Assembly: GCA_001770285.1 (NCBI GenBank)
Contig: MEQQ01000084.1
Span: 1-53,914 of the forward strand
DNA from: Betaproteobacteria bacterium RBG_16_66_20
GTDB taxonomy: Bacteria; Pseudomonadota; Gammaproteobacteria; Burkholderiales; SG8-39
Reading direction: 5' to 3'
Length of the DNA: 53,914 nt
Positions 25,588 to 32,035 of the stretch are shown in pieces. Made by a program: the position numbers and the translations under genes. Within the stretch, counting starts at the first letter, position 1, and each line of letters begins with the position of its first letter. The notes below the pieces were generated by a model that had not been told where the DNA came from, ran no database searches, and was given only the letters and a program-made list of their open reading frames with translations.

Positions 25588-27393
25588 CTAATGCACGCCT
25601 GCCGCCTTGCAGGCGGACTGAACGCCCGCCGCGCAAGCCGCGGCGAAATGCGGCCGCGCCTCCGCAATCCTTCCCAGACCTCTGAGCAGCACCCCGTACT
25701 GGTAATGGGCGTCGCCGTCCTTCGCCTCCAGCTGCAGCGCGCGCCGGTATTGCAGTTCGGCCTCGAGCGTTTCCCCGCGCAGCGCCCGGACCATGCCGAG
25801 ACTGGTGTAGCTGTCGACATTGTCCGGGCTCAGATCGGCGGCCGCTAGGCAGTCCGCGAGCGCTGCGTCCAGGCGCTTCAGTCGCATGAGGACGACGCAG
25901 CGCCGCGCCAGCGCCTCGGCCTGGCGCGGATCGAGCTCCAGCGCGCGGTCGAAGTCGGCCCGCGCCTCCTCGCTGCGCGCGGCGCGCATGTAAAGCGTTC
26001 CGCGCGTCATCCAGCCGAGCGCGCTGCGCGCATCGATCTTGAGGGCCTGGTTGAAGTCCGCCAGCGCCTCCGGGTACCGGCCGGCTTTGTACTGCGCGAC
26101 GCCGCGGTTGCGCCAGGCACGGTCGCTGAATGGCGCCCTGGCATCCGTATTCTTCAGCACGGCGTCATTCCATACCTTGAATTCGCTGGAGAAGCTGCCG
26201 AGCCGGTCGAAAAACGGCGGCAACAGTGCAAGTCCCGCTGCGGCGAGCAGTGCAAGTCCCCAACCCGGGCGCAGGCGCGCCACTGCGGCCGGAATTGCGG
26301 CCGGCAGCAAGCTCATCCACAGATAGCTGCGATACAGAACGAACGGCTCCTGTACGCGCACCGTGGCGACCTCGGTGATCGCGAGCAGCCAGGGCGCGAG
26401 CATCGCCAAACCGACCAGTCCCACGCGTCCGCGGCGCAGGAGCAGCACCGTCCCGGCTACGGGCCAGGCAAGCCAGGCGGCTAAACCAACCGCCTGCGGC
26501 CAACTCATCAAGTGCGACGGAAACACCGGGCGCACATCGATCGACATCCAGCCCGGCCAGGGCAGCAGCCAGGTCGCGAGATAGCGGAAAAAGAGAAGCC
26601 CCTGGTTGAGCACGCTGAGCGGATAGGCATCGAACTGGTCGGCGCTGTGGTCCGACTCCGCGAGTTGGCGCACCGCGGCTTCCGCGAAGGGCTCGTAGCG
26701 CGTGCCGAGCAGCCCTTTTGCCTTGAGCGTGACCAGGAGGGCGATCGCGGCATACAGCGCGAATGGAAGCGCGAGCTGGCGCAAATTCAGAAACGACCAG
26801 CCGCGCACCAGCAGCACCAGCGTCGCTGCGACCGCGGGCAGCATCACGCAGTGTTCCTTGGAAAACACCGCGACGAAATATGCCGCCGCAGAGGCGATGA
26901 ACCAGTGCCATTTGTTGCGGAGCAGGCCTTCCAGAAAAAGCCGCAATGAGAGCAGTGCGAACAACGCCGCCATCAGGACGCTACGCTGCATCAGGTAGGC
27001 GACCCCGTAGACCGCGGCCGGATGCGCCAGGAACAGCAGCGCGCCAAAGAAGGCATGCCAGGCGGGGGCCGTCTGATCCTGCGGCAGCAGCGCAGCGAAA
27101 AGGCGTTTCAGAAAGAGGAACAGGGTCGTTGCGACCGCCGCGTGCAGCAGCACATTGAGCAGCCGTTGCCAGATCCAGTCCCTGCCGAGAGCTTCATAGA
27201 CCCAGCCGAATGTGGCGTAGGAGAACCAGCGCAAGTCGAAGCGGAACAGCGTTGAAGCATATGAGCGCAGGAAGCGCTCGGTCAGCTGCCCGTCGTCGAA
27301 CACGGGCGGATAGCGCAGCGATCCCCAATACAGGATCAGCGCAGCAGTGAAGAACGCTGCGATCGCCCACGAGGTCCGCTGCTGCCAGGACAT
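25588..27393 (-). CDS. Polytopic membrane protein with C-terminal TPR repeats (TMTC/DUF1736-like putative GT-C glycosyltransferase)
   Basis: The 601-aa product has YPPVFDDGQL, LLNVLLHAAVA, LFLAHPAAVYGVAYLMQRS and FSKEHCVMLP motifs in a ~400-aa multi-TM N-terminal half. These are followed by TPR repeats (...AQYKAGRYPEALADFNQALKIDARSALGW..., ...EARADFDRALELDPRQAEA...). Confidence 0.8.
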   Translation of the reverse strand: MSWQQRTSWAIAAFFTAALILYWGSLRYPPVFDDGQLTERFLRSYASTLFRFDLRWFSYATFGWVYEALGRDWIWQRLLNVLLHAAVATTLFLFLKRLFAALLPQDQTAPAWHAFFGALLFLAHPAAVYGVAYLMQRSVLMAALFALLSLRLFLEGLLRNKWHWFIASAAAYFVAVFSKEHCVMLPAVAATLVLLVRGWSFLNLRQLALPFALYAAIALLVTLKAKGLLGTRYEPFAEAAVRQLAESDHSADQFDAYPLSVLNQGLLFFRYLATWLLPWPGWMSIDVRPVFPSHLMSWPQAVGLAAWLAWPVAGTVLLLRRGRVGLVGLAMLAPWLLAITEVATVRVQEPFVLYRSYLWMSLLPAAIPAAVARLRPGWGLALLAAAGLALLPPFFDRLGSFSSEFKVWNDAVLKNTDARAPFSDRAWRNRGVAQYKAGRYPEALADFNQALKIDARSALGWMTRGTLYMRAARSEEARADFDRALELDPRQAEALARRCVVLMRLKRLDAALADCLAAADLSPDNVDSYTSLGMVRALRGETLEAELQYRRALQLEAKDGDAHYQYGVLLRGLGRIAEARPHFAAACAAGVQSACKAAGVH

Positions 27394-27474
27394 CGGCGAA
27401 GTATCGCATCGCGGCGCGCGGATTCCCCGGGACGCCGGCGCCCCGGGGGCCCCGCAACTTATCGACCCGTCCGC

Positions 27475-27813
27475 TCAGGCGGCGAGCCGGCCGTACTTCA
27501 CGAGCCGGGCGCGCACCCCGGTCTGGGTGCGCTGGTGCGCGGCCGCGAGATCCGGCAGGCCCCGCCCGGCGTCGAAGCCGGCAAGAAGCCTGCGGTCCTC
27601 GTCCTCCGTCCACGGCTCGCCGGTCTTGGCGGGGAGCTGCTGCTTGCGCCGCTCGAAGCGCTCGGCTTTTTCCAGCGCCTCGGCCGCCGCATACAACGCG
27701 CGCACGGTCTGCGCGCGCTGGTAGACGCTGTCGGCCGGGAATACTTCGCCGCTGTCCGGATCGACGCCGTTGGCGAGCGAGCGCACCACGCTCAATGCTT
27801 CGGATTGATTCAT
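27475..27813 (-). CDS. Hypothetical protein with a Myb/SANT-like C-terminal helix-turn-helix
   Basis: The start is moved to the ATG at 27813, preceded by GGGAGGGGG. The 112-aa product has a C-terminal GEPWTEDEDRRLLAGFDAGRGLPDLAAAHQRTQTGVRARL, matching the W-x2-E-E/D-D-x2-L Myb/SANT-type pattern. Its GC is host-like and high. Confidence 0.6.
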   Translation of the reverse strand: MNQSEALSVVRSLANGVDPDSGEVFPADSVYQRAQTVRALYAAAEALEKAERFERRKQQLPAKTGEPWTEDEDRRLLAGFDAGRGLPDLAAAHQRTQTGVRARLVKYGRLAA

Positions 27814-27845
27814 TCCGTTCACCCCCTCCCTACAGACAAGTCCTG

Positions 27846-27880
27846 TAGAGGATGAACGTATGTACAGCACTAGAGGATGA
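27846..27880. repeat. 10-bp direct repeat TAGAGGATGA x2 (27846-27855 and 27871-27880) at the islet edge, next to the inverted repeat CTACAG-N7-CTGTAG (27830-27848)
   Basis: Read directly from the sequence. The repeats lie in the 72-nt spacer between the DUF5131 stop (27886) and the start of the 112-aa gene (27813). Confidence 0.6.
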
Positions 27881-27885
27881 CAGCT

Positions 27886-28626
27886 TTACGCGGCAATTTG
27901 ATTCCAGGCGCGGCCGACTGGGTACTGACGGACACGCAGGCGAGGAGGAATTACATTCAGGTCGCCGCCTTTGCTTTGCTTTCCGCCCATCTGCTTCATA
28001 AAGAACGCGACACCGGCGGATTTGCATTGGCGCAGTACTGAGCCAGCCCACAACGGATTCATTGGCCGCGCTCGAGGTCCGGACTCACCCCCTACGATTA
28101 CCCAGTCAATCCCCCGCAAGACGAGCTTGTCCAGCGGGCCAATTAAAGGCTCACAAGACAGGAATCTCACCCTTGCTGGCGTCGCTTGAAGATCCTCAAT
28201 CCGCCGCAGGACCCGCCCATCCTCAACGCTTACGCCCATCCATATGTTTTCCGGCCATGGGAGCTCCATAGCCAGTGCGCGCAGTCTTTCGCTTCGCTTT
28301 GTGAGAATTTGGAATATGTGCTGAGGACAGTCCAACATGGTCTGAAATACGCTTTTCAGGAACCCGTCTGGAACATCTTCATGAAAAAGGTCGCTCATCG
28401 AATTCACAAAAACCATACGGCCACGCTTCCAAGTCCTCGGCAATGAGACTAAATCCCCATGCATCATTACCTGAAATCCATTTCGATAACGCTCACTGCC
28501 CATGGCCTTCAACCGGCCCGCCATCCGCTCGGCGTAGCAGTTCTTGCAACCCTGGCTCACCTTGGTGCAGCCGGTAACCGGGTTCCAAGTCATTTCTGTC
28601 CACTCAATCCTTGAGTTCGTTGCCAT
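27886..28626 (-). CDS. DUF5131 (phage Gp37/Gp68 family) three-Cys-motif protein
   Basis: The 246-aa product begins IEWTEMTWNPVTGCTKVSQGCKNCYAERM (C-x7-C-x2-C), followed by FVNSMSDLFHE, ILTKR, FLSCEPLIGPL and WVIVGGESGP. This is the pattern I associate with PF07505/DUF5131. Its GC is markedly lower than the flanks. Confidence 0.85.
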   Translation of the reverse strand: MATNSRIEWTEMTWNPVTGCTKVSQGCKNCYAERMAGRLKAMGSERYRNGFQVMMHGDLVSLPRTWKRGRMVFVNSMSDLFHEDVPDGFLKSVFQTMLDCPQHIFQILTKRSERLRALAMELPWPENIWMGVSVEDGRVLRRIEDLQATPARVRFLSCEPLIGPLDKLVLRGIDWVIVGGESGPRARPMNPLWAGSVLRQCKSAGVAFFMKQMGGKQSKGGDLNVIPPRLRVRQYPVGRAWNQIAA

Positions 28627-28640
28627 TCGGTGGCGCGCGC

Positions 28641-29462
28641 CTAAAAAAGATTGCCTTGCTTTACAAGTCTACAGGCATCCTTCCATAGCTTGATTGCCAA
28701 CTGTGCGCGTGAGAAGAAGGCGAGGCGATACAAACTCTGCTTACGGTTATTTGTTATCGATGGTAAGTCTGGGGCGCAAATCAAACCCAAACGCTCCACA
28801 CAAGAAATCCAATATGTCATGAAATCAAACCGCGTGGATTCACTGGACTGCCGTATGTCAATTGCCGTTTCCCATCCGGGCGCAAATTTTTCGAGGCGCG
28901 GATCCTTGTTACGTAAATAGGTGACCAGATTTCTAGTCAAATCATGTGTGCTGAAGTGAACTATAAGATCCATGTGTTCAAGCTTCGCCAATGTCTTGAT
29001 CGCCGCAAACGTCAGCGCGCCAATGTTGTAAGGATCCAAGAATGCTAGATGGAGACCGCGGCGGTCCAGCTGACCGGCGACACGCGCGGCTGTTGCCTCT
29101 GCCTCTCCGAATATTGCGGTTACAGGAGCATCCAACGCGCGAAGCCGTCGTTCGCACGTGTTCGCCCGCGACTCATCCGCATCGGCGACGAATACCGAGG
29201 TAAACGGCACCCCTTTGTCGCGCGATATTTTCCATGCGGCGACTGGACTTCCGTCCATAAATTCCTTCGTTTTTCTGAGCTGCACACGTCCGGCCCCACA
29301 GAACAAGTCAATGTAGGTGCGGATTGGAAACTTTCGACGTGCCTCTCGGGCACAATCGATGTACCGCTCCAAACGATGGAGTTTTTCCGGTGCCCAGTCA
29401 CCGACAACAAGAGTGGGAAGTCCGTCCGCCACATCTGTCACTAGGTCAGCTTTGGCGCTCAT
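28641..29462 (-). CDS. tcmP: Three-Cys-motif partner protein TcmP-like (SAM-methyltransferase-like motifs)
   Basis: The 273-aa product has GDWAPEKLHRLERYI...TYIDLFCGAG (an MTase motif I-like G-loop) and LAFLDPYNIG (a DPPY-like motif IV). It lies 14 nt upstream of the DUF5131 gene, the conserved pairing I recall for TIGR04474. Its GC is low. Confidence 0.8.
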   Translation of the reverse strand: MSAKADLVTDVADGLPTLVVGDWAPEKLHRLERYIDCAREARRKFPIRTYIDLFCGAGRVQLRKTKEFMDGSPVAAWKISRDKGVPFTSVFVADADESRANTCERRLRALDAPVTAIFGEAEATAARVAGQLDRRGLHLAFLDPYNIGALTFAAIKTLAKLEHMDLIVHFSTHDLTRNLVTYLRNKDPRLEKFAPGWETAIDIRQSSESTRFDFMTYWISCVERLGLICAPDLPSITNNRKQSLYRLAFFSRAQLAIKLWKDACRLVKQGNLF

Positions 29463-29480
29463 ACTGGTCGCACGTCAATG

Positions 29481-29926
29481 CTAGTCGTCTTTCAACGTCT
29501 CCAAGGCTTGTCGGATGACATCGTAGGAAAAGCCACGGCCCTGAAGAAATCGAGCCCGCTTCGCACGCTCTTCGCGCGTCGCCGCCGGCGCGCGGTATTT
29601 CCGGCTCAGAATGCCGCTGGCGCGCTCCAGCTCGCCTTCGGAGGAAATGCGTTCGATGGTTTCCCGATCGACCCCCTTGGCCTTCAGGTCCTGGCGGATC
29701 CTCGCCGCGCCGTATTTGCGCGACAGCGAGCGGACCCGCTCCTCGGCGTAGCGCTGGTCTGAAAGCTGCTTCTTCTGTACGAGCGCGTCGAGAATCGCGG
29801 CAACAACTTCCGAAGATCCTGCATGCGGCCCCAGCTTGCGTGCGAGCTCGGCCCGGGAGTGCTCCCGGCGCGCGAGCAGCCGCAACGCCCGCGCCCGGAG
29901 CTCTACCGGGGTGTCAGGTCCGTCTT

Positions 29927-29930
<4 letters not shown>
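29481..29930 (-). CDS. recX: RecA regulator RecX
   Basis: The 149-aa product has [23 protein letters not shown] and repeated three-helix modules. It overlaps the recA stop by 4 nt. Confidence 0.9.
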
Positions 29931-30988
<1,058 letters not shown>

Positions 30989-31071
30989 TATGTACCTCTT
31001 CTTCTGGTTGTCGGCATCATTCGGCAGGCTCACCCCCTGCGGGGACCGAGTTCCTGGGCCGGCACCGGATA

Positions 31072-31087
31072 CTGTATAAATGCACAT
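31072..31087. promoter_or_regulatory. Putative LexA (SOS) box upstream of recA
   Basis: TACTGTATAAATGCACATGTA contains CTGT-N8-ACAT, one mismatch from the CTGT-N8-ACAG consensus. It lies 84-99 nt upstream of the recA GTG. Confidence 0.5.
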
Positions 31088-31162
31088 GTATTGTGGTCGG
31101 TTGACAGGCCGCTGTCAAACGGCCTGCGGTAAAATCGGAAAAACTTCTTTGGAGACAAGACG

Positions 31163-32035
31163 ATGGCGAAAATTTCCTTCCTCGGCCTCGGCGTCATGGG
31201 CTACCCGATGGCGGGCCATCTGCTGAAAAAGGGCGGCCACGAAGTGACCGTCTACAACCGCAGCCCGGCCAAGGCCGCCCAGTGGGTCAAGGAGCACGGC
31301 GGCAAGTCCGCCCCCAGCCCGCGCGAGGCGGCACAGGGTGCCGACGTCGTCATGATGTGCGTCGGCAACGACGATGACGTGCGCTCGGTCGCCTACGGGG
31401 ACAACGGGGTGCTCGCCGGGCTGAAGAAGGGCGCGGTCCTGGTCGACCACACCACGGCATCGGCCGTCGTTGCCCGGGAACTGCATACGAAGTGCAAGGA
31501 AAAAGGCGTCGGTTTCGTCGACGCACCGGTCTCCGGGGGCCAGGCGGGCGCAGTGAACGGGCAGCTCGGCATCATGTGCGGCGGCGACCAGGCCGATTAC
31601 GACAGGGCGCTGCCGGTGCTCAACGTCTACGCCAAGATGTGCGCGCGGATCGGCGGCGCGGGCGCCGGCCAGCTCACCAAGATGGTCAATCAGGTCGCCA
31701 TCGTCGGACTGCTGCAGGGCCTGGCGGAAGCGCTCAACTTCGGCAAGCAGGCCGGCCTCGACATGGACAAGGTGATCTCGGTGATTTCCAAGGGCGCGGC
31801 CCAGTCCTGGCAGATGGACAACCGCTGGAAGACCATGGTCGAAGGCAAGTTCGAGGGCTTCGGCTTCGCCAGCGACTGGATGCGCAAGGACCTCAACATC
31901 GCGCTCGCGGAAGCGAAGAAGAACGGCGCCCACATGCCCGGCACCGCGCTGATCGAGCAGTATTACGGCCGCATCAGCGCGGCAGGCCACGGCCGCTGGG
32001 ACAACACCGCGCTGATGGGGCTGCTGGCGAAATAA
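31163..32035 (+). CDS. NAD(P)-dependent oxidoreductase, 3-hydroxyisobutyrate/6-phosphogluconate dehydrogenase-like family
   Basis: MAKISFLGLGVMGYPMAGHLLKKGGHEVTVYNRS is the Rossmann GxGxMG motif. ...DAPVSGG...GAGQLTKMVNQ is the family signature. Confidence 0.85.
   Translation: MAKISFLGLGVMGYPMAGHLLKKGGHEVTVYNRSPAKAAQWVKEHGGKSAPSPREAAQGADVVMMCVGNDDDVRSVAYGDNGVLAGLKKGAVLVDHTTASAVVARELHTKCKEKGVGFVDAPVSGGQAGAVNGQLGIMCGGDQADYDRALPVLNVYAKMCARIGGAGAGQLTKMVNQVAIVGLLQGLAEALNFGKQAGLDMDKVISVISKGAAQSWQMDNRWKTMVEGKFEGFGFASDWMRKDLNIALAEAKKNGAHMPGTALIEQYYGRISAAGHGRWDNTALMGLLAK

What the first reader, a model, noticed from the sequence alone, without database searches (positions are those of the whole stretch)
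27830..29480. Low-GC DUF5131 (Gp37/Gp68 three-Cys) + TcmP cassette inserted 18 nt behind recA-recX: an uncharacterised two-gene system, possibly SOS-coupled
Seen directly: two genes 14 nt apart (tcmP 29462->28641, DUF5131 28626->27886) have clearly lower GC (about 40-55% by eye) than the ~65-70% flanks. They interrupt the widely conserved recA-recX-alaS neighbourhood. The tcmP ATG is only 18 nt after the recX stop, with no hairpin in between. The cassette is therefore probably read through from the recA-recX operon, which carries a near-consensus LexA box at 31072-31087. Family knowledge: the DUF5131/PF07505 family is named after phage proteins Gp37/Gp68. It has an N-terminal C-x7-C-x2-C motif (here GCTKVSQGCKNC) reminiscent of a non-canonical radical-SAM/Fe-S site. 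TcmP is defined only as its conserved partner. Inference: TcmP here shows SAM-methyltransferase-like motifs (IDLFCGAG, then ~85 aa later FLDPY, DPPY-like). This suggests a nucleic-acid modification activity or another SAM-using activity working with an Fe-S enzyme. The phage origin of the family, the horizontal-transfer signature and the possible DNA-damage induction fit a mobile DNA-modification, anti-phage or abortive-type module. To my knowledge no biochemical function has been assigned to this pair.
Basis: partly seen in the sequence, partly recalled or inferred. Interest (0 to 1): 0.7.

Follow-up and report, generated by a model that had tools for sequence, protein, structure and literature searches.

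The report
SOS-linked radical-SAM/TcmP gene pair behind recX
A foreign, low-GC pair of genes (a radical-SAM-type enzyme plus a methyltransferase-shaped partner) sits in the tail of the DNA-damage operon recA-recX; the same uncharacterised pair carries LexA operator-type motifs in many other bacteria and sits behind recX in M. tuberculosis, so it is probably a widespread, unstudied part of the DNA-damage response.

Summary
tcmP (29462-28641; TIGR04474, 141 bits) and a DUF5131/PF07505 gene (28626-27886; 309 bits) form a 1.6-kb segment of 53.6% GC (GC3 54-61%) in a 65.9% GC window. Relatives have recA-recX-small ORF-alaS with nothing in between. The segment entered the 3' end of recX itself; an 8-nt repeat and a remnant of the old recX end flank it. 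It lies at this junction in at least seven uncultured Burkholderiales lineages and is missing from at least seven others. It is under purifying selection but has not drifted towards host GC. TcmP models as a class-I methyltransferase fold (closest: RlmJ). DUF5131 models closest to spore photoproduct lyase. TcmP is always next to DUF5131 (105 of 105 loci). New here: 63% of same-strand pairs carry an exact LexA-box-type motif upstream (alpha, beta/gamma or Gram-positive type) against 4% of neighbouring genes. M. tuberculosis Rv2735c/Rv2734 is the same pair, 9 nt behind recX, and published work shows co-transcription with recA and mitomycin-C induction. The pair is already listed as the untested PADLOC candidates PDC-M41/M30. 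Its biochemical function is unknown. I favour a DNA-damage-response role, with phage defence as the main rival.

The parts
31090..31118 (-). sigma-70-like recA promoter (TTGACA-17-CACAAT)
   Evidence: It is the only promoter-like site in 27300-31300. The -35 block is conserved in relatives.
31072..31087 (-). LexA-type operator candidate ATGTGCATTTATACAG (one mismatch to CTGT-N8-ACAG)
   Evidence: The right half TTTATACAGTATCCGGTG is invariant in five relatives. LexA binding was not tested.
29927..30988 (-). recA (true start GTG 30988, 353 aa)
   Evidence: 88-94% identical to relatives' RecA. The start codon aligns with ATG in relatives.
29481..29930 (-). recX; its start overlaps the recA stop, and its last ~10 codons (29512-29481, 50% GC) come from the inserted DNA
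   Evidence: RecX HTH1-3 domains and NF001055 at 145 bits. The 3' end diverges from cassette-less relatives after GTCATCC.
29513..29520 (-). left copy of the 8-nt direct repeat TGTCATCC (insertion junction inside recX)
   Evidence: Read from the sequence. The homologous position in relatives is shown.
28641..29462 (-). tcmP: three-Cys-motif partner protein, class-I SAM-methyltransferase fold
   Evidence: TIGR04474 E 5.6e-41. PADLOC PDC-M41A E 1e-9. AF2 pLDDT 93.5. Foldseek top match RlmJ, E 4.6e-7, TM 0.5. Motifs YIDLFCGAG and FLDPY.
27886..28626 (-). DUF5131 / Gp37-Gp68 family protein, radical-SAM superfamily (C20-x6-C27-x2-C30; GGESG 179-183)
   Evidence: PF07505 E 3e-92. PDC-M41B E 3.6e-106. 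phrog_2045. Invariant residues. AF2 pLDDT 83.9. Best PDB match is spore photoproduct lyase, E 2e-3, TM 0.49.
27875..27882 (-). right copy of the 8-nt direct repeat TGTCATCC
   Evidence: The same junction (stop codon + GCTGTCATC) occurs in all cassette-bearing loci that reach it.
27850..27882 (-). non-coding remnant of the ancestral recX 3' end plus conserved CGTTCATCC
   Evidence: It aligns with the last recX codons and the intergenic start of cassette-less relatives L002, L008 and L013.
27816..27858 (-). conserved hairpin that pairs with the Shine-Dalgarno sequence of the downstream 112-aa ORF; marks the end of the cassette region
   Evidence: Fold (z -0.96, not significant alone). The stem sequence differs between relatives while pairing is kept.
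27475..27813 (-). host 112-aa ORF that directly follows recX in relatives (ancestral neighbour)
   Evidence: 71-97% identical in relatives, 71% GC. No Pfam or NCBIfam hit.

Best explanation
SHOWN. A 1.6-kb horizontally acquired two-gene module, tcmP + DUF5131, is integrated into the 3' end of recX. It supplies a new recX tail and leaves the old one as a remnant downstream. tcmP starts 18 nt after the recX stop, with no terminator, no promoter-like site and no LexA box of its own.

INFERRED. The pair is therefore transcribed as the distal part of the recA-recX operon, whose promoter carries a conserved LexA-type operator. That would make it inducible by DNA damage.

SHOWN ELSEWHERE. The same family pair carries exact, lineage-appropriate LexA-box-type motifs in most same-strand operons. 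It was captured independently behind recX in M. tuberculosis (Rv2735c/Rv2734), where co-transcription with recA and mitomycin-C induction are published.

INFERRED MECHANISM. DUF5131 is a radical-SAM-superfamily enzyme whose closest solved structure and closest superfamily neighbour is spore photoproduct lyase. It would use a [4Fe-4S]/SAM-derived radical to act on DNA. TcmP has an RlmJ-like Rossmann methyltransferase fold with an intact-looking SAM site but a non-canonical motif IV. It would be the obligate partner that binds SAM and/or a flipped-out base and gives target selectivity. I read the pair as an accessory DNA-damage-response module, doing direct reversal, processing or marking of damaged DNA. 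It would spread between genomes much as imuA-imuB-dnaE2 or umuDC cassettes do.

Sub-confidences: identity and foreign origin about 0.95; SOS coupling in this window about 0.75; repair/lesion-processing chemistry about 0.35.
For: Identity.

Foreign origin and junctions.

Functional constraint: DUF5131 is 75-87% identical at protein level between lineages although 4-fold sites are saturated at 28-48% identity.

Tight recX-tcmP spacing is kept in other lineages: 18 nt in L054-L057, 13 nt in L184.

No terminator or promoter in between.

Obligate pairing: 105 of 105 loci with room.

LexA-box-type motifs within 220 nt upstream of the leading gene:
- 30 of 48 same-strand loci; 41 of 65 non-convergent loci.
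- 16 of 389 neighbouring genes as control. Fisher p 2e-28.
- 25 of 34 clusters after de-replication at 90% identity.

Box type matches host where the host is known:
- alpha-type GAAC-N7-GAAC in a Pseudorhodoplanes contig, L101.
- CTGT-N8-ACAG in a Burkholderiales MAG, L173.
- CTGT-N8-ACAG on an Acidovorax plasmid, L181.

M. tuberculosis: Rv2735c = TIGR04474 at E 2e-59, 9 nt after recX; convergent Rv2734 = PF07505. RT-PCR shows co-transcription (PMC3062782). The genes form a mitomycin-C-induced cluster (PMC5057432).

Folds. Radical-SAM megacluster 5-2, next to SPL (5-3): PMC9477430.

Precedent: SOS-regulated radical-SAM repair genes (SplB/COG1533; the COG1573-COG4277 operon) are described in PMC8565304.

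On a B. glumae plasmid the pair lies next to imuA-imuB-dnaE2.
Against: - No experiment exists on this organism. LexA binding and read-through are inferred only.
- The window's box has a mismatch, and the match is not significant as a bare pattern.
- Convergent, prophage-type pairs mostly lack LexA boxes: 10 of 41 loci, 2 of 29 clusters.
- None of 120 other loci has recA or recX nearby.
- The pair also occurs inside or next to defence loci: Hna-like helicase, type ISP R-M, DUF262, PIN, GIY-YIG. It is a PADLOC defence candidate found by embedding in such loci.
- The structural match of DUF5131 to SPL is weak: E 2e-3, and no PDB match at E<=1e-3. There is no Pfam Radical_SAM hit.
- TcmP motif IV is DPY here and DQQ in Rv2735c, so catalysis is uncertain.
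- SOS control fits mobile-element and defence functions as well as repair.
Confidence: 0.5

Rival explanations
1. Anti-phage or anti-mobile-element defence system (PADLOC candidate PDC-M41). The pair senses or is switched on by infection or prophage induction, for which SOS is the signal. It then modifies or damages nucleic acid so that phage replication aborts.
For: - Both proteins hit PDC-M41 models, and DUF5131 also hits PDC-M30B. Those candidates were defined by embedding inside BREX, DISARM, type I R-M or Hma loci.
- Defence-type neighbours: next to Hna in S. meliloti; MTase-helicase-GIY-YIG...PIN on an Acidovorax plasmid; DUF262, helicase and type ISP R-M in R. rhizogenes; AbiE nearby in L195.
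- In prophages it sits beside CI-type/HTH repressors, where accessory defence genes often lie.
- Low GC, patchy presence and two old TcmP allele classes that do not follow host clades.
Against: - All 145 PDC systems are untested.
- Direct LexA control, and placement in the recA operon in two phyla, is unusual for known defence systems.
- Many same-strand loci sit among housekeeping genes, not in defence islands.
- DUF5131 is about 65-70% identical between proteins whose source names place them in different phyla. That is unlike fast-evolving defence effectors.
- Isolated phages themselves carry DUF5131.
Confidence: 0.25
2. DNA or RNA hypermodification module of mobile-element origin. DUF5131 and TcmP together install a modified base, for example to protect phage or element DNA from restriction on induction, or to modify an RNA in the way RlmJ does. 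In this lineage it has been domesticated.
For: - TcmP is closest in fold to the rRNA m6A methyltransferase RlmJ and other RNA/small-molecule methyltransferases.
- DUF5131 lies next to a DNA methyltransferase in Gordonia phage Bakery, in the phage replication region.
- 181 phage genomes carry DUF5131.
- SOS or repressor control is natural for early prophage genes.
Against: - Phages carry DUF5131 without TcmP, so the two-enzyme modification pathway is not what phages use.
- TcmP lacks a canonical catalytic motif IV and matches no Pfam methyltransferase model.
- Nothing in the window points to a restriction partner.
Confidence: 0.12
3. Selfish addiction module similar to restriction-modification or toxin-antitoxin. 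One protein harms nucleic acid and the other protects, which keeps the pair in genomes whether or not the host benefits.
For: - Strict pairing in all three gene orders, including convergent, as in type II R-M pairs.
- Small two-gene islets among core genes.
- Lower GC than the flanks in 87% of loci.
- A frameshifted Rv2735c is common in some M. tuberculosis lineage-4 isolates, which shows TcmP can be lost (PMC9846648).
Against: - Solitary DUF5131 is common in phages, and solitary TcmP loss is tolerated in M. tuberculosis. Neither fits a strict poison/antidote pair.
- LexA control is not explained.
- No nuclease or toxin domain was detected.
Confidence: 0.08

Closest known systems
M. tuberculosis Rv2735c / Rv2734 (downstream of recA-recX)
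   Same: It is the same two families: TIGR04474 at E 2e-59 and PF07505. tcmP directly follows recX, by 9 nt there and 18 nt here. It is absent from a related species (M. smegmatis), so it is also an insertion. Co-transcription with recA-recX and mitomycin-C induction are published.
   Different: It is in a different phylum. TcmP is only about 20% identical (330 aa, motif IV DQQ). DUF5131 is convergent rather than on the same strand. The two are therefore independent captures. The published papers treat both genes as conserved hypotheticals.
PADLOC phage-defence candidates PDC-M41 and PDC-M30
   Same: The gene content is the same: DUF5131 = M41B/M30B (E 3.6e-106 and 7.7e-102) and short TcmP = M41A (E 1e-9).
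   Different: These are untested predictions from 'guilt by embedding'. Here the pair is embedded in the recA operon, not in a defence system. The long-TcmP, three-gene plasmid form is not present here.
Spore photoproduct lyase (SPL) and SOS-regulated SplB-like radical-SAM 'DNA repair photolyases' (COG1533)
   Same: They belong to the same radical-SAM megacluster 5. SPL is the best structural match of the DUF5131 model. SplB-type genes are LexA-regulated in several phyla (PMC8565304).
   Different: There is no detectable sequence similarity to SPL chains. The Cys motif is CX6CX2C instead of CX3CX2C. DUF5131 is shorter (246 against 340 aa). It needs a TcmP partner in cells. The substrate is unknown.
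LexA-regulated radical-SAM + UDG-like two-gene operon (COG4277-COG1573; TIGR03915/03916)
   Same: It is a two-gene operon with a radical-SAM enzyme and a DNA-handling partner. It is under SOS or DNA-damage control in many bacteria and is also biochemically uncharacterised.
   Different: The protein families differ. The partner there is a uracil-DNA-glycosylase-like protein, not a methyltransferase fold.
RlmJ (23S rRNA m6A2030 methyltransferase, DUF519 family)
   Same: It is the best structural match for TcmP: 4blu/6qdx at E 5e-7 to 7e-7, TM 0.5, plus 2oo3. The order of motifs I to IV on strands beta1 to beta4 is the same.
   Different: There is no sequence-level hit. Motif IV is DPY here and DQQ in Rv2735c, where I recall DPPY in RlmJ (from memory, not checked here). 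TcmP has its own conserved N-terminal VGxWxxEK segment and C-terminal segments.
Mobile SOS cassettes imuA-imuB-dnaE2 and umuDC
   Same: They are small LexA-controlled accessory modules that move between chromosomes, plasmids and prophages. On a B. glumae plasmid the pair lies beside imuA-imuB-dnaE2, which has its own CTGT-N8-ACAG box.
   Different: The proteins and chemistry are unrelated (translesion polymerases).

Membership tests
DUF5131 / PF07505 (Gp37/Gp68) | Match to the Pfam model above the gathering score | tested here: met
   E 3e-92, 309 bits against 28.9, covering residues 4-219. phrog_2045 at E 1.4e-92.
DUF5131 / PF07505 (Gp37/Gp68) | N-terminal three-Cys motif | tested here: met
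   C20, C27 and C30 are invariant in 46 homologues. The spacing is CX6CX2C.
Radical SAM superfamily | Sequence membership (PF04055 or a curated rSAM model above cut-off) | tested here: not met
   There is no PF04055 hit at E<=0.01. TIGR04471 'radical SAM mobile pair protein A' scores E 1e-20, but 74 bits is below the 355-bit cut-off. Membership rests on the SFLD/RadicalSAM.org curation of DUF5131 as megacluster 5-2.
Radical SAM superfamily | Partial TIM-barrel fold with a Cys triad and a GGE-type SAM motif | tested here: inconclusive
   The model has alternating beta/alpha elements at pLDDT 83.9. The best PDB matches are SPL, then NifB, LipA/LIAS and MiaB, but at E 2e-3 to 5e-2 and TM about 0.5. 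G179-G180-E181 is invariant.
Radical SAM superfamily | [4Fe-4S] cluster and reductive SAM cleavage | not testable with these tools
   This needs UV-vis/EPR and 5'-deoxyadenosine assays.
TcmP / TIGR04474 | Match to the NCBIfam model above cut-off | tested here: met
   E 5.6e-41, 141 bits against 53, covering residues 23-265.
TcmP / TIGR04474 | Encoded next to a PF07505 gene | tested here: met
   The gap here is 14 nt. All 105 loci with room have the pair.
Class I SAM-dependent methyltransferase | Rossmann methyltransferase fold | tested here: met
   AF2 pLDDT 93.5, pTM 0.91. There are 278 PDB matches at E<=1e-3, and all 50 listed are SAM-dependent methyltransferases or methyltransferase-fold proteins.
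Class I SAM-dependent methyltransferase | SAM-binding motif I and an acidic residue after beta2 | tested here: met
   D52-L-F-C-G-A-G58 follows beta1 and D94 ends beta2. Both are at least 90% conserved.
Class I SAM-dependent methyltransferase | Catalytic motif IV [DNS]-P-P-[YFW] of amino-methyltransferases, or a Pfam methyltransferase hit | tested here: not met
   Motif IV is D143-P144-Y145 here and D-Q-Q in Rv2735c. There is no Pfam family at E<=0.01 and no PDB sequence hit. TcmP is therefore not filed as a proven methyltransferase.
PADLOC PDC-M41 (candidate defence system) | Both component models present and adjacent | tested here: met
   M41B E 3.6e-106 and M41A E 1e-9.
PADLOC PDC-M41 (candidate defence system) | Protection against phage | not testable with these tools
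   The candidates are explicitly untested.
LexA/SOS regulon | LexA operator at the promoter that drives the genes | tested here: inconclusive
   In the window, a one-mismatch box abuts the -10 of the recA promoter and is conserved in relatives. Elsewhere in the family, exact boxes occur in 41 of 65 non-convergent loci against 16 of 389 controls. Binding was not tested.
LexA/SOS regulon | Induction by DNA damage | not testable with these tools
   This is published only for the M. tuberculosis homologues.
Self-mobile element (transposon, integrative element) | Own recombinase plus terminal repeats or target-site duplication | tested here: not met
   The 1.6-kb insert holds only the two genes. 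An 8-nt direct repeat TGTCATCC flanks it. No inverted terminal repeats stand out.

The most novel reading that the evidence does not exclude
TcmP-DUF5131 is a previously unrecognised, widely distributed LexA-controlled DNA-repair or lesion-processing system. It would be based on radical-SAM chemistry distinct from that of spore photoproduct lyase. It would be present from Alpha- and Betaproteobacteria to M. tuberculosis (Rv2734/Rv2735c), and phages would borrow it in stand-alone form.
Probability: 0.3. Interest if true: 0.85.

Novelty: new member of a known kind. Interest (0 to 1): 0.68.

Why it matters
The gene pair is abundant. This window, together with the comparative data, turns a vague 'mobile pair' into a testable hypothesis. 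The pair appears to be wired to the DNA-damage response in two ways: through its own LexA boxes, or by fusion to recA-recX, which happened independently in Burkholderiales and in M. tuberculosis. If it repairs or marks damaged DNA by radical chemistry, that would add a new arm to the SOS response and would give a function to two conserved hypothetical genes of a major pathogen. If it is instead an SOS-triggered defence system, it would link DNA-damage signalling to immunity. Both readings can be tested directly in tractable organisms.

Tried and rejected
- Sequence searches of both proteins against PDB chains found nothing meaningful.
- TcmP against 50,697 isolated phage genomes gave no match. 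'Phage origin' of the pair as a whole is therefore rejected.
- I looked for recA, recX or alaS near 120 other TcmP loci and found none. recX linkage is thus lineage-specific, not general.
- Recent transfer between the Burkholderiales lineages is rejected, because 4-fold sites are saturated.
- A localised 'specificity domain' to explain the two TcmP allele classes is rejected, because divergence is even along the protein.
- I looked for the cassette's own LexA box. Only a one-mismatch match lies inside the tcmP 3' end (28674-28659), at the chance rate.
- I looked for a Cheo box upstream of Rv2734 and found none; the only exact box in that locus is at the recA promoter.
- Terminal inverted repeats around the insert: nothing convincing.
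- The plasmid three-gene variants in Burkholderia show no LexA box in the divergent promoter region.
- Literature searches for DUF5131, TcmP, PF07505, Gp37/Gp68, COG4422 and TIGR04474 found no functional study.
- A decaying, non-functional passenger is rejected. Protein identity is 75-87% despite saturated synonymous sites, and reading frames are intact in all lineages.
Full report
**What is in the window**

On the minus strand the order is as follows:
- a promoter-like site, TTGACA-17-CACAAT (31118-31090);
- a LexA-type box (31087-31072);
- recA (30988-29927);
- recX (29930-29481, overlapping the recA stop);
- 18 nt;
- tcmP (29462-28641);
- 14 nt;
- DUF5131 (28626-27886);
- a hairpin;
- a 112-aa ORF (27813-27475);
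- a 601-aa TPR membrane protein (27393-25588);
- alaS (25553-22929).

The family calls are firm. PF07505 scores E 3e-92, and TIGR04474 scores E 5.6e-41, well above its curated cut-off. The cassette is 53.6% GC, against 65.9% (sd 2.5) for windows of equal size. It is the lowest stretch in the window. GC3 is 54-61%, against 76-92% in the neighbouring genes. The simple scan finds no terminator-like or promoter-like site from recX to the end of DUF5131. The Cys motif is C20-x6-C27-x2-C30. The GC is 52-55%, not as low as 40%.

**How it got there**

The organism is an uncultured member of the Burkholderiales; the closest RecX sequences are 63-73% identical. Seven related genomes have recA-recX followed directly by the 112-aa ORF, and four of these contigs continue directly into alaS. 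None has tcmP or DUF5131.

Alignments show that the window's recX departs from the cassette-less relatives after the sequence GTCATCC, about ten codons before its stop. The last recX codons of the relatives, and the intergenic CGTTCATCC that follows them, reappear immediately after the DUF5131 stop. An 8-nt direct repeat, TGTCATCC, marks both junctions (29520-29513 and 27882-27875). The insert therefore entered the recX 3' end and brought a new, 50% GC tail for RecX. RecX still has all three HTH domains. The insert encodes no recombinase, and no terminal inverted repeats stand out.

**Distribution in the lineage**

The same cassette lies at the same junction in at least seven distinct lineages: the window/L055, L054, L056, L057, L058/L059, L182 and L183-L187. 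The right junction is the same in the four loci where it could be read.

By the 112-aa ORF the hosts fall into two clades, and each clade holds both cassette-bearing and cassette-less members. TcmP comes in two classes that are only about 51% identical, and these do not follow the host clades. DUF5131 stays at 75-87% identity. The divergence between the two TcmP classes is even along the protein.

Between cassette copies, 4-fold degenerate sites are saturated (28-48% identity), while the proteins remain conserved. The genes are therefore old and under purifying selection. Even so, GC3 stays near 55% right next to host genes with GC3 of 75-95%. I cannot explain this lack of amelioration. Selection on composition, or repeated replacement from a lower-GC pool by recombination in the conserved flanks, are both possible.

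The recX-alaS interval is a variable spot in general. Other relatives carry an R-M-like insert, a PPK2-like gene with a partial duplicate of the 112-aa ORF, or other genes there.

**What the proteins look like**

*TcmP.* TcmP gives a confident model (pLDDT 93.5). It has 278 PDB matches at E<=1e-3, and all 50 listed are SAM-dependent methyltransferases or methyltransferase-fold proteins. The best are the 23S rRNA m6A methyltransferase RlmJ and a DUF519 protein, at TM about 0.5. The conserved YIDLFCG.G follows strand 1, an Asp ends strand 2, and FLDPY follows strand 4. This is the order of methyltransferase motifs I, II and IV. However, motif IV is DPY here and DQQ in the M. tuberculosis member. 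No Pfam methyltransferase model and no PDB sequence matches TcmP. I therefore call it a methyltransferase fold with a probable SAM site, not a proven methyltransferase.

*DUF5131.* RadicalSAM.org curates DUF5131 as radical-SAM megacluster 5-2, beside spore photoproduct lyase at 5-3. It has an invariant Cys triad and a GGE motif. It scores E 1e-20 against 'radical SAM mobile pair protein A', below that model's cut-off. Its model (pLDDT 83.9) is closest to spore photoproduct lyase, followed by other radical-SAM enzymes. These scores are weak: E 2e-3, TM 0.49. The family is very large and conserved; proteins named from Acidobacteria, Anaerolineae and Gammaproteobacteria MAGs are about 65-70% identical to the window's.

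**The pair elsewhere**

In 105 of 105 loci with enough sequence, TcmP lies next to DUF5131. Of these, 51 are on the same strand with tcmP first, 50 are convergent, and 4 have DUF5131 first.

The convergent form is mainly in prophage-like contigs, beside HTH and CI/S24 repressors, RecT, integrase and lysozyme genes. Isolated phages carry DUF5131 in 181 genomes, from hosts ranging from Actinobacteria to cyanobacteria and archaea, but they never carry TcmP.

Plasmids carry a three-gene form with an extra long TcmP. This form sits next to defence-type genes, or next to imuA-imuB-dnaE2.

Both proteins match the PADLOC candidates PDC-M41/M30. These come from a 'guilt by embedding' screen and are explicitly untested. 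I found no functional study.

**The link to the DNA-damage response**

This is the main new result. I scanned all fetched loci for three published LexA-box types: CTGT-N8-ACAG, GAAC-N7-GAAC/GTTC-N7-GTTC and GAAC-N4-GTTC.
- 7 of the 13 CTGT-type matches, and 44 of the 69 alpha-type matches, in 942 kb fall within the 280 nt upstream of tcmP or DUF5131.
- An exact box lies within 220 nt upstream of the leading gene in 30 of 48 same-strand loci and in 41 of 65 non-convergent loci.
- The control rate is 16 of 389 neighbouring genes, and several of those 16 are the same intergenic boxes. Fisher p is 2e-28.
- After de-replication at 90% TcmP identity, 25 of 34 same-strand clusters keep a box. Only 2 of 29 convergent clusters do.

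Where the host could be named, the box type fits the host:
- an alpha-type box in a contig whose flanking gene product is identical to a Pseudorhodoplanes protein;
- a CTGT-type box in a contig matching a Burkholderiales MAG;
- TACTGTGCAAATAAACAGTG, 47 nt upstream of DUF5131, on an Acidovorax plasmid.

A GenBank note on phage phiE125 gp37 pointed to M. tuberculosis Rv2734. I fetched the M. tuberculosis-complex locus through its intein-containing RecA. Rv2735c is a TcmP (TIGR04474, E 2e-59) that starts 9 nt after recX. Rv2734 is a convergent DUF5131. Published RT-PCR shows that Rv2735c is co-transcribed with recA-recX, and M. smegmatis lacks the gene (PMC3062782). Rv2734, Rv2735c, recX and recA form a mitomycin-C-responsive cluster (PMC5057432). 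TcmP has thus been placed directly behind recX twice, in two phyla, by proteins only about 20% identical.

**Reading for this window**

The cassette has no box of its own. It sits 18 nt behind recX with no terminator in between, and this spacing is kept in other lineages. The recA promoter has a box with one mismatch. That match is not significant as a bare pattern, but it abuts the -10 and is conserved in relatives. Read-through from a LexA-controlled recA-recX operon is therefore likely, though not shown. Neither gene has an obvious Shine-Dalgarno sequence, so translation may be low.

**Function**

I favour an accessory DNA-damage-response module. In this reading a radical-SAM enzyme related to spore photoproduct lyase acts on DNA, and a SAM-binding or base-binding partner with a methyltransferase fold assists it.

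The grounds are:
- the LexA control;
- the two recA-operon captures;
- the adjacency to imuA-imuB-dnaE2 on one plasmid;
- the superfamily neighbourhood and closest structural match of DUF5131;
- the precedent of other SOS-regulated radical-SAM repair genes.

The main rival is SOS-triggered phage defence, supported by the PADLOC embedding evidence and by defence-type neighbours. A nucleic-acid hypermodification role and an addiction-module role are less likely, but they are not excluded. No chemistry has been shown for either protein.

**Verdict**

The cassette is a new member of a known but uncharacterised gene-pair family. The family-wide SOS link, and the identification of Rv2735c/Rv2734 as the same pair, make it worth experimental follow-up.

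Noticed in passing
window 27816-27858 (minus strand): A hairpin upstream of the 112-aa ORF pairs CGTTCATCC... with the ORF's Shine-Dalgarno region (GGAGGGGGTGAACG). Relatives keep the pairing with different stem sequences (L001 CTACAGG/CTGTAG; L002 GCCGCC/GGCGG). It has no U-tract. It may be a translational control element or a processing site.
   Followed up: partly
window 27475-27813: A 112-aa ORF with a strong Shine-Dalgarno sequence is conserved (71-97%) directly after recX in this Burkholderiales group. It has no Pfam or NCBIfam match, only a weak PHROG hit. Its function is unknown.
   Followed up: partly
window 25588-27393: A 601-aa membrane protein with C-terminal TPR repeats lies between the 112-aa ORF and alaS. 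tblastn finds no match to it in the relatives' loci, and in most relatives the small ORF runs almost directly into alaS. Its GC is host-like (66%).
   Followed up: partly
L008 5607-9727: A relative has a 4.1-kb insert of 48% GC between the 112-aa ORF and alaS. It holds two DNA-methyltransferase-like ORFs and a third 439-aa ORF, and so looks like a restriction-modification system. This adds to the picture of the recX-alaS interval as an insertion hotspot.
   Followed up: no
L010 1909-3937: A partial duplicate of the 112-aa ORF flanks a polyphosphate-kinase-2-like ORF inserted after recX in another relative.
   Followed up: no
L183 2679-3590; L184 2343-3299: In one cassette-bearing lineage an extra 303-318-aa ORF lies on the opposite strand between DUF5131 and the 112-aa ORF. 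It has no NCBIfam match.
   Followed up: partly
L180 7849-8001; L193 3783-3983: Burkholderia plasmids carry a three-gene form: a short tcmP divergent from DUF5131 plus a long TcmP. The divergent promoter region shares the sequence GGTACGATATTGTACG, holding a GTAC-N6-GTAC repeat, and has no LexA box. A different regulator may act there.
   Followed up: no
L114, L122, L139, L149 (about 40-70 nt upstream of tcmP): Several same-strand loci without a canonical LexA box share a conserved upstream block, GTTAACCCACAAGTTGTAGCGATGTGGT. It could be another operator type or a promoter.
   Followed up: no
window 30988 vs 31087: The mechanical ORF list starts recA at ATG 31087, inside the operator. Alignment with relatives puts the true start at GTG 30988, where most relatives have ATG.
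   Followed up: yes
window 27886-29462 compared with L054, L058, L182, L183: Cassette copies are saturated at synonymous sites, yet all keep GC3 near 55% beside host genes at 75-95%. There is no amelioration towards host composition, and I have no explanation.
   Followed up: partly
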